Positions 37,184 to 41,986 of a stretch of DNA of 64,000 nt are shown here, piece by piece. A model generated the notes under the pieces. It was not told where the DNA came from, made no database searches, and saw only the letters and a program-made list of their open reading frames with translations. The position numbers were made by a program, and so were the translations under genes. The number at the start of each line of letters is the position of its first letter. Within the stretch, counting starts at the first letter, position 1. The DNA is from Escherichia coli (lineage in GTDB: Bacteria > Pseudomonadota > Gammaproteobacteria > Enterobacterales > Enterobacteriaceae). The stretch lies in assembly GCF_017348835.2 (NCBI RefSeq), contig NZ_CP071375.1. One strand, given 5' to 3'.

Positions 37184-38205
37184 TAGCTCGCCACCAATTT
37201 TTGATAGTCGGCGTCACTGAGTGAACAATGCCAGAACAGTTGGGCGTAATGCTGCATGTCACTTTTAAACTGGCGATTGATGGCGGGATCCAGCCAGGCG
37301 TGAAGTCTGCGTAATCCCAGAAGACGGTTGATTCCCGGCGGGGCATCCAGCCAGCCAAAGGGCAAGCCACTTAAAAATAAGATGCGTTGTTCCGCAACGG
37401 CTTTCACGCCCTGCCAGAGAGGATCACGACGAATAAAATCTGCAGTAACGGCCTCCTGAACCAGAATAATATCCGGCTGCCAGCGCAGGAGATTTTCCAT
37501 GGAAACCTGTGTCAGGCCGTGGCGATCGGCTATTTGCGCGACGTTGTGCAAACCTAATAATTCCGCCGCCTCGGTATGCAACGAACCCTGTAAGCCCGTT
37601 TCCAGCCCTTGAGGACCGCGCGCAGCATAAAAGCGGAGGTTAGCGGCGGGTGAGGTGGCGAATGCCTGAGCTTCACCAACGAAGCGGCTGGCGAGATTGG
37701 CTTGTTCTGCGGCGCGATGCTCTTCGCCTAACGTTTTGCCAAGCGTTGTTAACTGTTCTGCTGATTGCTCCAGTTTCCCGTTAAGCAATAACCAGGGTAT
37801 TTGTGTCTGTTCGCTAACCTGCCGTGCCTGGGAGATCCAGGTTTCATCCGTATTGCCGCAATCAACGACCAAATCGGGATGTAACGCCATAAGCCCTTCC
37901 AGCGAGAGTGTGCTGGCGCGCCCGGCGAGTCGTCCCAGCCTGGGTAACTGGCGAATGTGCTCTGACAATGGAATTAATGCCTGACGGGCAAAATCAAAAG
38001 AGGAAAAACCGACCATTTTTTCTGGCGCGACAGCCAGCAATAGCAAATCGGCGGGCGCACCTGCGCTGACGATGCGTGTAATGTTTTGGGCTTCGGGAAG
38101 CGTCAGTGAGGCCCAGAAATTGACTGATTGTGCAAAGGACGGCAGATGATGCAGGAACAATGTTGACGCAAGAATCTGTGTAAACCTCCGTCTGGTTAGT
38201 GACAT
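37183..38205 (-). CDS. periplasmic substrate-binding protein of a metal-chelate-type ABC importer (gene 1)
   Basis: 340-aa ORF; N-terminus MSLTRRRFTQILASTLFLHHLPSFAQS resembles a twin-arginine-type signal peptide. Confidence 0.7.
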   Translation of the reverse strand: MSLTRRRFTQILASTLFLHHLPSFAQSVNFWASLTLPEAQNITRIVSAGAPADLLLLAVAPEKMVGFSSFDFARQALIPLSEHIRQLPRLGRLAGRASTLSLEGLMALHPDLVVDCGNTDETWISQARQVSEQTQIPWLLLNGKLEQSAEQLTTLGKTLGEEHRAAEQANLASRFVGEAQAFATSPAANLRFYAARGPQGLETGLQGSLHTEAAELLGLHNVAQIADRHGLTQVSMENLLRWQPDIILVQEAVTADFIRRDPLWQGVKAVAEQRILFLSGLPFGWLDAPPGINRLLGLRRLHAWLDPAINRQFKSDMQHYAQLFWHCSLSDADYQKLVAS

Positions 38206-38480
38206 AAGTTATATCCTGATAATTAAAACCGCTATATATTTACATATATATATCGAAAAAAATCATGTTTGATGTCAAAATTTGTCTAAAGAGACAGAAT
38301 GATTTGCTTGTTGCTTAAATAACACTTTGTTCCACAAGAAAATTGTCAGGGAGAATGGCGGAGTGGCGAAAAATATAAATAGAGGTGTAATGATTAACAA
38401 ATTGATAAAATAAAATTAAAATCTTCTCTGATAAAAGAAAATAAAGGCATAGACCGTAGAATGGGGGGCATTTCGTGGCG

Positions 38481-38523
38481 AAAAAAGAGCAATGCCAATT
38501 TTATGCACATAATGGCATTGCTC
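38481..38523 (-). terminator. rho-independent terminator of treA
   Basis: Hairpin GAGCAATGCCA-(15 nt)-TGGCATTGCTC followed on the minus strand by TTTTTT. Confidence 0.65.
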
Positions 38524-38550
38524 GATATACAGCCTCGATATACAGCAAAG

Positions 38551-40248
38551 TTAAGGCGTAGGTTCCGCCTCTTTTTGTTTTACCGGCTGTGTTGTTGATT
38601 CACTGAGTGGACGCGTCGCCGGAACATTGTCACACGGTTGCTCTTTCGGGCAGATCAAATCCAGCATTTTCAGCGTCACGCCATTGGTCCAGCCAAAGCC
38701 ATCCTGTAATGGATATTCGCCACCGCCGCCCCCCGTTCCGGTGGTGCTGACATCATATTTTTCCACCAGCTTTTTCTCCCGGTCATAGGTGTGCTGAACA
38801 TTGGTCAGGAAGTGCCAGCTAATGTCCATCGCCACCTCTTTTTGCCCGTAGTTTTGTAATCCTTCTGTCGCGACCCACTGTAACGGTGCCCAGCCATTTG
38901 GCGCATCCCATTGTTGCCCACTTTTCACCGACGTGGTGTTCAGGCCGCCGGGTTGCAGCAGATGTGTTTTCGTCGCCGTCGCCATTTTGTTGGCGCGATC
39001 TTTCGCTGCCGCATTGACGTACAGCGGGAACAGGGCGGCAGCGGTTAACTGATTGCGCACTTTATGACTTTTCAGGTCGTAATCGGCATACCAGCCTTGT
39101 TGATCGTTCCACAGGTATTTTTCGATCCCTTTTTGACGGGCATTTGCCAGCGTTTCGTACTGGTTTGCCATCGCGTTATCTCCGGCAACTTTGCTGGCGC
39201 GGGCGAGAATTTTTTCCATTTTAAACATCAGGCTGTTCAGATCGACCGGTACGATGCTGGTGGTGCGTATGGTATTTAACTGCTGCGGATTGTCCATCCA
39301 GCGCGAGCTGAAATCCCAGCCAGACGCAGCGGCAGAGCGCAAGTCGCGGTAAATTTCAGTGGCAGGTCGATTCGGATTGCTTTTGGCGGTGGCAATATCT
39401 TCCACCCATGACTCTGGTCGTGGCGTATCGCGATCGTCCCAGTAGCGGTTGAGAAGGGTACCATCCTGAAGTTTTACAACGCGTTTTTCCTGTTGTCCGG
39501 CTTGCAGGTTTTCAACACCGTCCATCCAGTAAGCATATTCTTTTTGCATTTGCGGCAGGTATTGCTTCAATGCAGCATCGCCTTCATGCTGCGCCAGTAA
39601 CTCTACCATCATGGCAAAGAAGGGCGGCTGCGAGCGGCTTAAATAGTAACTGCGGTTGCCGTTGGGAATATGACCGTAAGTGTCTATTTCATGAGCAAAA
39701 TTGGCCACCATATCCGCGACCTTATCCCAGTGACCGCTTTCGGCAAGTCCTAACATGGTGAAGTAACTGTCCCAGTAATATACCTCGCGAAAACGTCCGC
39801 CTGGCACGACATAAGGTTCCGGCAGCGGTAACAGAGAATCCCATTTTTCGGTGTTTTCGGTAGAACGCGTTAATACCGGCCAAAGTCCGTCAATATGTTC
39901 GCGCAGTGACTGTCCCTCTGGCGGAACATATTTCTCTCCCTCTTTCGGCAGGGTGAAATTGACGTTAACGAAATGGCGCAGATCAAATCCGCTCTGGTTT
40001 TGCTGCATCCGATAATCAGCAAGGATCATCAGCGGATCGCTGTTCGGCACGGCATCGGCAAAGGTTTTTTGGTCCGGAAAAAGCTTGGCGTTTTGCACAT
40101 CATTAAACAGCGGCCCTAATAAAATATCAGGCGGCTGTGGCGTTACCGGTGTTTCTTCTGCCTGCACCGATAGCGCAGCGAAACACAAAAAGATGCAGGC
40201 TGGAATTAACGCCATTTTTTGCGGGCGAGAAGGTGCGGGGGATTTCAT
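38551..40248 (-). CDS. treA: periplasmic trehalase
   Basis: ORF trimmed to [17 protein letters not shown]..., giving 565 aa. Confidence 0.95.
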
Positions 40249-40567: not shown

Positions 40568-41986
40568 TTAACCCTGACGGTTGAAACGTTGCGTTTTAAC
40601 GTCCAGCGTTAGCTTTTCTTCTGGTTGTATCGCATACAGTTTCTCACCCTGCTGGCAAATCCAGCCAATCCCCAGTTCACGGGCGATCAGGGCGCTGTGG
40701 GATACCGGACTTCCGGCGCTAAGGCAGATACCTTTTACAACCGCCGGATCCAGTTGCAGTACTGTGGAAGGATAAATGTTCTCCGCCAGTAGAATAGTTG
40801 GCGAGTTAAACTGCGGGAGTTCTTCTTTCGTTTGGGTCAGGTGGACCAGGGCGCGATGCAGAAGATCGTCCACATCAATATAGCGAGCTTGTAGATATTC
40901 ATCATCCAGTTGCTGGTATTGCTGGCTAAGTTCTTTAAGAACTTGCTGCCAGGCATATTCTGCCGTGCAATGTTCGTGCTGAAGGAGTTCGCTTGCCGCC
41001 GCCAGCAGTTCCGGATCATCTAACAGTGTATGGTGACCAGAAAAGATTGCGGCAATATCGTCAAGCCCGCTGGCTTCTGCTTTCGCTGTTAACGTCATCA
41101 GATCTAATAACGTGAAGTCAATGGCCTGGCGTAATCGTTCTTGTTCTTCTTCCACGGTCAGGGTTGATTTGGCCTGTACCGTACATAAAACCGGTTGATA
41201 ATAAAAGGCTTTACCCGAAACAGGCGGAACGGGACGCAGAGTAGGTGGAGCAACTTCCTCCGTTTCACCAAAGTTATCTTCAGCCAGCTGACGGAAAGCG
41301 ATCAGTGCCTCTTCAGCTTCTGGCCCTTTCGCAATCAGGCGCAGCGTATCGTTATAGCGAACTTGTAATAACGCAATCTGGTTAATACTCTCCGGTGTGA
41401 CGCATTTGCCGTTTTTCTCCAACAACATATCGGCATTAAATGTCGATAAGGTATAAACCAGCCGGGAGGCTGGACGTACATGCAGGCCGTTACGGTTCTT
41501 TATGACCACCGCCAGAGAACGGGCTTCTTCATCGTACGGAGGACATGTGTCAGAGATTTCAGTGTCGGAGGACGGTAAACCCAGTTGTTCACGTTTGGCT
41601 TCCAGCGCATGCATGGCGTCAAAGATAACTTTGTCGATATCCGCCCCCGAGGCCGCGCTGACCGTTGCTGCCAGTGTACCTTCGACCAACGGCGCAGCAC
41701 ACAAACGTACTTTTGCGGCGATCTCGGGAGCCAGCAATTCCAGCGCAGTTTCAGCACTCAATAATGCGCTACCCATATCCATCATGACCAGCACATGGTC
41801 GGCATCAGCAACAGATTCGATGGCCTCCATCACTTTGACGGCATCGGTACCAATGGGATTTTGTGGATCGTCAATTCCCGCGGCAATGGCGATTTTACAA
41901 CTATCACTCATTAACATCTGACGGGCTAATTCACCGACACCTTCTCCCAGTCGGCTGCTATGTGAAACTATGACCAGGTTTACCAT
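40568..41986 (-). CDS. dhaM: dihydroxyacetone kinase phosphotransferase subunit DhaM
   Basis: ORF trimmed to MVNLVIVSHSSRLGEG..., giving 472 aa. Confidence 0.9.
   Translation of the reverse strand: MVNLVIVSHSSRLGEGVGELARQMLMSDSCKIAIAAGIDDPQNPIGTDAVKVMEAIESVADADHVLVMMDMGSALLSAETALELLAPEIAAKVRLCAAPLVEGTLAATVSAASGADIDKVIFDAMHALEAKREQLGLPSSDTEISDTCPPYDEEARSLAVVIKNRNGLHVRPASRLVYTLSTFNADMLLEKNGKCVTPESINQIALLQVRYNDTLRLIAKGPEAEEALIAFRQLAEDNFGETEEVAPPTLRPVPPVSGKAFYYQPVLCTVQAKSTLTVEEEQERLRQAIDFTLLDLMTLTAKAEASGLDDIAAIFSGHHTLLDDPELLAAASELLQHEHCTAEYAWQQVLKELSQQYQQLDDEYLQARYIDVDDLLHRALVHLTQTKEELPQFNSPTILLAENIYPSTVLQLDPAVVKGICLSAGSPVSHSALIARELGIGWICQQGEKLYAIQPEEKLTLDVKTQRFNRQG

What the first reader, a model, noticed from the sequence alone, without database searches (positions are those of the whole stretch)
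38481..38546. Perfect 13-bp tandem duplication in the treA 3' region beside its terminator
CTCGATATACAGC occurs twice in tandem (38521..38533 and 38534..38546) between the treA stop codon and the terminator hairpin, overlapping the hairpin stem by 3 nt. It sits at the boundary between core treA and the accessory operon and may be a junction scar from the insertion event or a small slippage duplication.
Basis: seen in the sequence. Interest (0 to 1): 0.2.

Follow-up and report, generated by a model that had tools for sequence, protein, structure and literature searches.

The report
Rare 13-bp duplication after treA
The perfect 13-base tandem duplication between the trehalase gene's stop codon and its terminator is real, but it is an ordinary small duplication carried by about 1% of related E. 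coli strains, not a scar left by insertion of the neighbouring iron-uptake operon.

Summary
CTCGATATACAGC occurs twice in tandem at 38521-38546. It lies in the treA 3' untranslated spacer, and its first 3 nt (CTC) form the base of an 11-bp terminator stem (38487-38523) followed by a T6 run on the treA strand. Chance would give about 0.001 such repeats per window.

The "junction scar" reading is not supported.
- About 2,143 of 5,426 complete E. coli genomes have the same operon beside treA, but only 29 carry the duplication. All 12 aligned non-carriers have one copy.
- No 3-copy allele and no mismatched duplication exists in these genomes.
- The real boundaries between the operon-type and K-12 (ycgY)-type locus lie elsewhere. 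One is inside treA at about 38609/38610, where the last 18 TreA residues differ. The other is at 31802/31803.
- ycgY-type strains still keep the last 24 nt of the operon's TonB-receptor gene. The operon is therefore the older state, not an insertion.

The best explanation is a derived, probably neutral 13-bp tandem duplication that arose on a single-copy operon-type haplotype and spread by descent and recombination. It lengthens the stop-to-hairpin spacer from 14 to 27 nt and leaves the coding sequence and terminator intact. Interest is low.

The parts
38521..38533 (-). Copy 1 of the 13-bp unit (CTCGATATACAGC on the plus strand, GCUGUAUAUCGAG in the treA transcript). Its CTC (38521-23) forms the base of the terminator stem. 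Either copy may be the added one; relatives have a single copy here.
38534..38546 (-). Copy 2 of the 13-bp unit, identical to copy 1. It lies 4 nt downstream of the treA stop codon on the treA strand.
38481..38523 (-). Intrinsic-terminator-like element of treA: 11-bp stem (38523-38513 and 38497-38487), 15-nt loop, then U6 (38486-38481). The stem is invariant in all aligned strains and is unchanged by the duplication.
   Evidence: (I7)
38551..40248 (-). treA (periplasmic alpha,alpha-trehalase) coding sequence, untouched by the duplication.
38551..38609 (-). Diverged 3' end of treA. The last 18 codons read [18 protein letters not shown] here and TVKSATTQPSTKEAQPTP in ycgY-type strains. The right-hand homology breakpoint between the two locus types is at about 38609/38610.
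38206..38480 (-). AT-rich intergenic region between the treA terminator and the substrate-binding-protein gene. It is indel-prone in other strains: an AT dinucleotide, a 5-bp and a 7-bp duplication.
31779..38205 (-). Six-gene operon downstream of treA. Genes: substrate-binding protein 37183-38205, FecCD permease 36203-37183, ATPase 35448-36206, SAM methyltransferase 34626-35438, ModD 33775-34629, TonB-dependent receptor 31779-33749.
   Evidence: RefSeq annotation of PE164, 2 differences from the window in 16.8 kb
31779..31802 (-). Last 24 nt of the TonB-dependent receptor gene (..AGVEYTF stop), also retained in ycgY-type strains. The left-hand breakpoint is at 31802/31803.

Best explanation
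This is a derived, lineage-restricted 13-bp tandem duplication (a small insertion allele) in the 3' untranslated spacer of treA. It arose on an operon-type haplotype that had one copy of CTCGATATACAGC. The likeliest cause is a replication or repair misalignment next to the terminator hairpin. It was then passed on by descent and by homologous recombination to a few E. coli lineages. It lengthens the stop-codon-to-hairpin spacer from 14 to 27 nt. It leaves the TreA protein, the terminator stem-loop and the U-tract unchanged, so it is most likely selectively neutral. Shown here: its presence, its rarity, the ancestral single-copy state, the intact terminator and the position of the true locus junctions. 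Inferred: the mutational mechanism, the single origin and neutrality.
For: - Perfect 2.0-copy repeat.
- A 40-nt probe spanning the copy-copy junction hits 29 of 5,426 complete E. coli genomes, all at 100% identity. About 2,143 genomes have the operon-type flank.
- All 12 aligned non-carriers, including O157:H7, O145 and strains whose flanks are about 5% diverged from the window, have exactly one copy. Single copy is therefore the ancestral state.
- B19429 (single copy) matches the window at every base between about 38229 and 38730 except the 13-bp duplication and a 2-bp AT-repeat length difference. It is a candidate ancestral background.
- The window/F2_81 group and the main carrier group match at every base from 38165 to 38682 apart from a few private variants (an extra AT in the window, single-base variants in four other carriers). 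XJ34 is a visible mosaic within treA, showing recombination at this locus.
- No 3-copy allele and no mismatched duplication were found.
- The terminator hairpin is predicted identically in both alleles.
- The same intergenic region carries other small duplications and indels in other strains.
Against: - There is no microhomology at the duplication end points (G before, A after, junction C|C). Classical slipped-strand duplication is therefore not directly evidenced.
- The nine carriers examined sit on three flank haplotypes. Strain 873.10 differs from the others 60 nt to the left of the repeat (38461, 38430, 38299, 38290). A second independent origin cannot be excluded.
- Neutrality is not tested. 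Doubling the stop-to-hairpin spacing could change termination efficiency.
Confidence: 0.82

Rival explanations
1. Junction scar or target-site duplication left when the six-gene iron-uptake operon was inserted beside treA.
For: The repeat lies in the short stretch between treA and the operon.
Against: - About 2,100 operon-bearing genomes have one copy and only 29 have two.
- The two copies are adjacent, not one at each end of the operon. The left junction at 31802/31803 has no copy.
- The right junction is inside treA at about 38609/38610.
- ycgY-type strains retain a 24-nt remnant of the receptor gene, so the operon predates the ycgY arrangement.
Confidence: 0.01
2. Footprint of a transposable element that inserted here, made a 13-bp target-site duplication, and was later lost cleanly.
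For: The duplication has sharp ends without microhomology, as a staggered-cut fill-in would give. From general knowledge, some IS4-family elements make 11-13-bp target duplications. An IS1 sits in the equivalent region of one ycgY-type strain.
Against: No element or element remnant lies between the copies. None of the 21 operon-type loci examined has an insertion at this site. From general knowledge, clean excision that leaves only the target duplication is not a usual outcome in E. coli, which lacks end-joining repair. A systematic search for occupied sites was not done.
Confidence: 0.05
3. A hypermutable repeat (VNTR or contingency locus) whose copy number changes recurrently.
For: The duplication occurs on at least three flank haplotypes, including the divergent strain 873.10.
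Against: - Only two allele states exist (1 or 2 copies) and no 3-copy genome was found.
- All 29 duplications are identical.
- Closely related carrier pairs keep the allele: PE164 and F2_81, EC974 and EC1515, XJ34 and XJ6-3.
- There is no microhomology to drive recurrence.
- Recombination is demonstrated at the locus and explains the haplotype spread.
Confidence: 0.04
4. An adaptive regulatory change. Moving the terminator hairpin from 14 to 27 nt behind the stop codon removes interference by the terminating ribosome. This would alter treA termination and read-through into the downstream iron-uptake operon, or treA mRNA stability.
For: Spacer lengths of 14 and 27 nt follow from the sequence. 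treA and the operon are on the same strand with only this terminator between them. From general knowledge, terminators very close to stop codons can be affected by the ribosome.
Against: The allele is rare (1.4% of operon-type genomes) and shows no sign of spread beyond a few lineages. The hairpin and U-tract are unchanged. There are no expression data.
Confidence: 0.06
5. Sequencing or assembly artefact.
For: None found.
Against: The identical allele is present in 29 complete genomes from different laboratories, hosts and countries.
Confidence: 0.005

Closest known systems
Short tandem-duplication (insertion) polymorphisms in bacterial intergenic DNA, attributed to replication slippage or misalignment
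   Same: It consists of two perfect head-to-tail copies of a short unit. Relatives carry one copy. It lies in non-coding DNA next to a hairpin-forming sequence. The same intergenic region shows other 2-, 5- and 7-bp duplications in other strains.
   Different: There is no flanking microhomology of the kind that usually seeds slippage. Only one step (1 to 2 copies) is seen.
Target-site duplications made by transposable elements or inserted islands
   Same: It is a short direct repeat with sharp ends near a variable gene block.
   Different: The copies are adjacent with nothing between them. They do not flank the operon. Their presence is uncorrelated with the operon.
Rho-independent (intrinsic) terminators downstream of E. 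coli genes
   Same: The adjacent element has an 11-bp stem followed by U6 directly after treA.
   Different: The 15-nt loop is longer than typical, and the simple scan missed it for that reason. ycgY-type strains use an unrelated, longer hairpin shared with the convergent ycgY gene.

Membership tests
Simple tandem duplication allele (slippage-type indel) | Two adjacent head-to-tail copies with no intervening sequence | tested here: met
   38521-38533 and 38534-38546 are 100% identical.
Simple tandem duplication allele (slippage-type indel) | Related sequences carry the single-copy form at the same site | tested here: met
   All 12 aligned non-carriers have one copy. Only 29 of about 2,143 operon-type genomes carry the junction.
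Simple tandem duplication allele (slippage-type indel) | Microhomology at the end points (typical, but not obligatory) | tested here: not met
   The flanks are G before and A after, and the junction is C|C. The nearby GC..GC pair is 12 nt apart, not 13.
Insertion scar or target-site duplication of the accessory operon | One repeat copy at each end of the inserted segment | tested here: not met
   Both copies lie together at 38521-38546. The 13-mer is absent from the left junction at 31802/31803.
Insertion scar or target-site duplication of the accessory operon | The repeat co-occurs with the insertion across strains | tested here: not met
   About 2,100 operon-bearing genomes lack the duplication.
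Insertion scar or target-site duplication of the accessory operon | The repeat lies at the homology breakpoint with empty-site strains | tested here: not met
   The breakpoint is at about 38609/38610 inside treA, 63 nt from the repeat.
VNTR or contingency locus | Several copy-number alleles in the population | tested here: not met
   Only 1- and 2-copy alleles occur. The 3-copy query found only the 29 two-copy records.
VNTR or contingency locus | Copy number affects a reading frame or promoter spacing | tested here: not met
   The repeat lies after the treA stop codon and before the terminator. The only overlapping ORF (38461-38598, plus strand) is a 45-aa antisense ORF with no support.
Intrinsic terminator (for the adjacent hairpin) | Stable G+C-containing stem-loop directly followed by a U-run on the transcribed strand | tested here: met
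   11-bp stem, -18.6 kcal/mol, z = -4.3, then U6.
Intrinsic terminator (for the adjacent hairpin) | Transcripts end there in vivo | not testable with these tools
   This needs 3'-end mapping (Term-seq or RNA-seq) of an operon-type strain.

The most novel reading that the evidence does not exclude
The 13-nt expansion is a regulatory allele. It moves the terminator hairpin out of the footprint of the ribosome stopping at the treA stop codon (spacer 14 to 27 nt). This would change termination efficiency and so the read-through from osmotically induced treA into the downstream TonB-receptor/ABC iron-uptake operon.
Probability: 0.05. Interest if true: 0.25.

Novelty: already known. Interest (0 to 1): 0.07.

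Why it matters
It matters very little. The result removes a false lead, because the repeat is not evidence for how the operon arrived. As a by-product, it shows that the operon-bearing arrangement is the older state of the ymgE-treA interval and that the K-12-type ycgY arrangement replaced it. One breakpoint lies inside treA, so TreA has two alternative C-terminal tails in E. coli. The duplication could serve as a minor lineage marker.

Tried and rejected
- **86-nt probe:** a query spanning the whole repeat, meant to count carriers, failed because the tool joins two overlapping pieces on single-copy genomes. It was replaced by a 40-nt junction-spanning probe.
- **3-copy and variant alleles:** a 3-copy probe and a word-11 blastn search for mismatched duplications found nothing beyond the same 29 genomes.
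- **Genome-contig scan of the hairpin:** this gave three chance hits, plus one E. coli-like contig binned in a Collinsella MAG that ends inside the repeat. No other Escherichia species matched exactly, so no outgroup state was obtained this way.
- **Rfam:** only a sub-threshold mir-310 hit, which I take to be a chance match to the hairpin.
- **Fur box:** no match within 3 mismatches anywhere in the window. The best match in the intergenic region is 13 of 19.
- **LexA box:** considered because of the CTGTATAT motif and rejected by inspection. The two CTG motifs are direct, not inverted.
- **Consensus terminator scan:** it missed the treA hairpin because the loop exceeds 8 nt.
- **Literature searches:** searches on ycgY/treA and on the operon returned nothing relevant.
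- **Template switch to the inverted near-copy at 37091-37105:** considered and rejected, because it would add AACTG..., not a second copy of the unit.

Full report
**Observation**

The window at 38521-38546 reads CTCGATATACAGC twice in perfect tandem. treA lies on the minus strand at 38551-40248. On the treA strand the order is:
- the stop codon UAA (38553-38551);
- CUUU;
- two copies of GCUGUAUAUCGAG;
- a hairpin whose 5' arm, GAGCAAUGCCA (38523-38513), begins with the last three bases of the second unit;
- a 15-nt loop;
- the 3' arm, UGGCAUUGCUC (38497-38487);
- U6 (38486-38481).

The arms are 100% complementary (I7). The hairpin folds at -18.6 kcal/mol, z = -4.3. A perfect tandem duplication of this length is expected about 0.001 times per window, and none was seen in 100 first-order Markov simulated sequences.

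**What the locus is**

The window is E. coli. It differs at 2 positions in 16.8 kb from strain PE164, NZ_CP114128.1. Downstream of treA on the same strand lie six genes: a substrate-binding protein, a FecCD permease, an ATPase, a SAM methyltransferase, ModD and a TonB-dependent receptor (31779-38205). ymgE follows. K-12-like strains have ycgY in that interval instead.

**How common the duplication is**

- An 801-nt query shows about 2,143 of 5,426 complete genomes with the operon-type flank. A 4-kb query of the operon agrees, with 2,138 genomes.
- A 40-nt probe that can only match if the copy-copy junction exists hits 29 genomes, all at 100% identity.
- A synthetic 3-copy probe finds only those same 29, each spanning 40 nt. 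No 3-copy allele exists in this set.
- A more permissive blastn search finds no mismatched versions.
- Alignments of 12 operon-bearing non-carriers all show one copy. They include O157:H7, O145:H28 and strains whose flanks are about 5% diverged from the window.

Single copy is therefore the ancestral state, and the duplication is a rare derived allele (about 1.4% of operon-type genomes).

**One origin or several**

Nine carriers were compared over 5 kb and at fine scale. They fall into three flank haplotypes:
- window and F2_81;
- a main group: 88-3493, 14EC033, EC1515, DSM 103246, JNEC-KY204 and XJ34;
- the generally divergent strain 873.10.

The first two groups match at every base from 38165 to 38682 apart from a few private variants (an extra AT in the window and single-base variants in four other carriers). 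The single-copy strain B19429 matches the window at every base between about 38229 and 38730 except the duplication and a 2-bp AT-repeat length difference. This is what one expects of the background on which the duplication arose. XJ34 switches haplotype within treA, so recombination at this locus is visible. A single origin followed by recombination explains the data. An independent event in 873.10 cannot be excluded, because it differs at 38461, 38430, 38299 and 38290. The end points show no microhomology (G before, A after, junction C|C), so the mutational route (misalignment next to the hairpin) is inferred, not shown.

**Junction-scar idea**

- The alignment of the operon-type and ycgY-type loci breaks at about 38609/38610, inside treA. 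Beyond that point the last 18 codons are homologous but diverged: [18 protein letters not shown] versus TVKSATTQPSTKEAQPTP. The 3' flanks are unrelated, and ycgY-type strains use a different, longer hairpin shared with convergent ycgY.
- At the other end, homology runs from ymgE through the last 24 nt of the TonB-dependent receptor gene (..AGVEYTF stop) and breaks at 31802/31803.
- ycgY-type strains thus carry a remnant of the receptor gene. This means the operon is the older state and the ycgY segment replaced it.
- The repeat is 63 nt from the nearest breakpoint. It is not found at the other breakpoint. It is absent from nearly all operon-bearing strains.

**Consequences**

The TreA protein is unaffected. 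The terminator stem, loop and U-tract are identical in both alleles and fold the same way. The only change is that the spacer between the stop codon and the hairpin grows from 14 to 27 nt. No Rfam family matches the region. No convincing Fur box is present. The same 345-bp intergenic region has other small length variants in other strains: an AT dinucleotide, a 5-bp duplication in O157 and a 7-bp duplication in CFSAN061768 and AH21E028. The duplication fits an ordinary background of small indels in AT-rich non-coding DNA.

**Verdict**

This is a real but ordinary feature: a rare, probably neutral 13-bp tandem duplication in the treA 3' untranslated spacer. It is not an insertion scar. The more informative by-products are that the K-12-type ycgY arrangement is a replacement of an older operon-bearing arrangement, and that one breakpoint lies inside treA.

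Noticed in passing
window 31779-31803; L003 2265-2340: ycgY-type (K-12-like) strains retain the last 24 nt (..AGVEYTF stop) of the TonB-dependent receptor gene just after ymgE, and homology ends at 31802/31803. The six-gene operon is therefore the older state of the ymgE-treA interval, and the ycgY segment replaced it.
   Followed up: partly
window 38551-38610: TreA has two alternative C-terminal tails in E. coli. The last 18 residues are [18 protein letters not shown] in operon-type strains and TVKSATTQPSTKEAQPTP in ycgY-type strains. The DNA there is only weakly similar, while upstream it is near-identical. This looks like a recombination breakpoint inside the gene.
   Followed up: partly
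window 37091-37105 (minus strand); L026 1046-1060: There is an inverted near-copy of the repeat unit plus two flanking bases inside the FecCD permease gene. CTCGATATGCAGCAA matches 14 of 15 in the window and 15 of 15 in an E. coli-like metagenomic contig. Chance is not excluded, and none of the 8 fetched carriers has the exact copy.
   Followed up: partly
window 40011-40023; L023, L005: O157:H7 strains EDL933 and ECP19-198 lack these 13 bp (GATAATCAGCAAG, followed by GAT) inside treA. This matches their RefSeq annotation of treA as a frameshifted pseudogene.
   Followed up: partly
window 38244-38245, about 38404, about 38465: The treA-operon intergenic region has other small length variants. 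An extra AT is seen only in the window among the aligned strains (even F2_81 lacks it). O157 strains carry a 5-bp ATAAA duplication. CFSAN061768 and AH21E028 carry a 7-bp TGGTATT duplication.
   Followed up: no
window 38352-38373 and 38458-38485: There is an imperfect direct repeat in the intergenic region (AGAATGGSGG ... GTGGCGAAAAA). The second copy lies directly after the treA terminator. It may be a remnant of an older duplication of the terminator tail.
   Followed up: no
window 6468-6532 (ORF 4053-7484, plus strand): A perfect hexamer array (AACCCA) of 10.8 copies encodes an (Asn-Pro)n linker in a 1143-aa ORF that reads like an autotransporter (no family search was run). Such arrays are plausible copy-number-variable sites.
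   Followed up: no
window 25979-26116: A nested 12-, 36- and 72-bp imperfect tandem array was reported by Tandem Repeats Finder. It was not examined.
   Followed up: no
L026 (JAIJJM010000486.1): A 2.5-kb contig binned in a Collinsella MAG is E. coli operon-type sequence, probably a binning contaminant. It ends inside the 13-mer, so its copy number is unknown.
   Followed up: no
window 40568-41986; L001 10469-11887: dhaM is an intact 472-codon reading frame in the window, but RefSeq annotates it as a pseudogene (internal stop) in PE164. The window differs from PE164 at 2 positions in 16.8 kb.
   Followed up: partly
L016 1173-2194 (strain 873.10): The substrate-binding-protein gene of the operon is frameshifted by a 1-bp deletion, equivalent to window 37821, in this divergent carrier of the duplication.
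   Followed up: no
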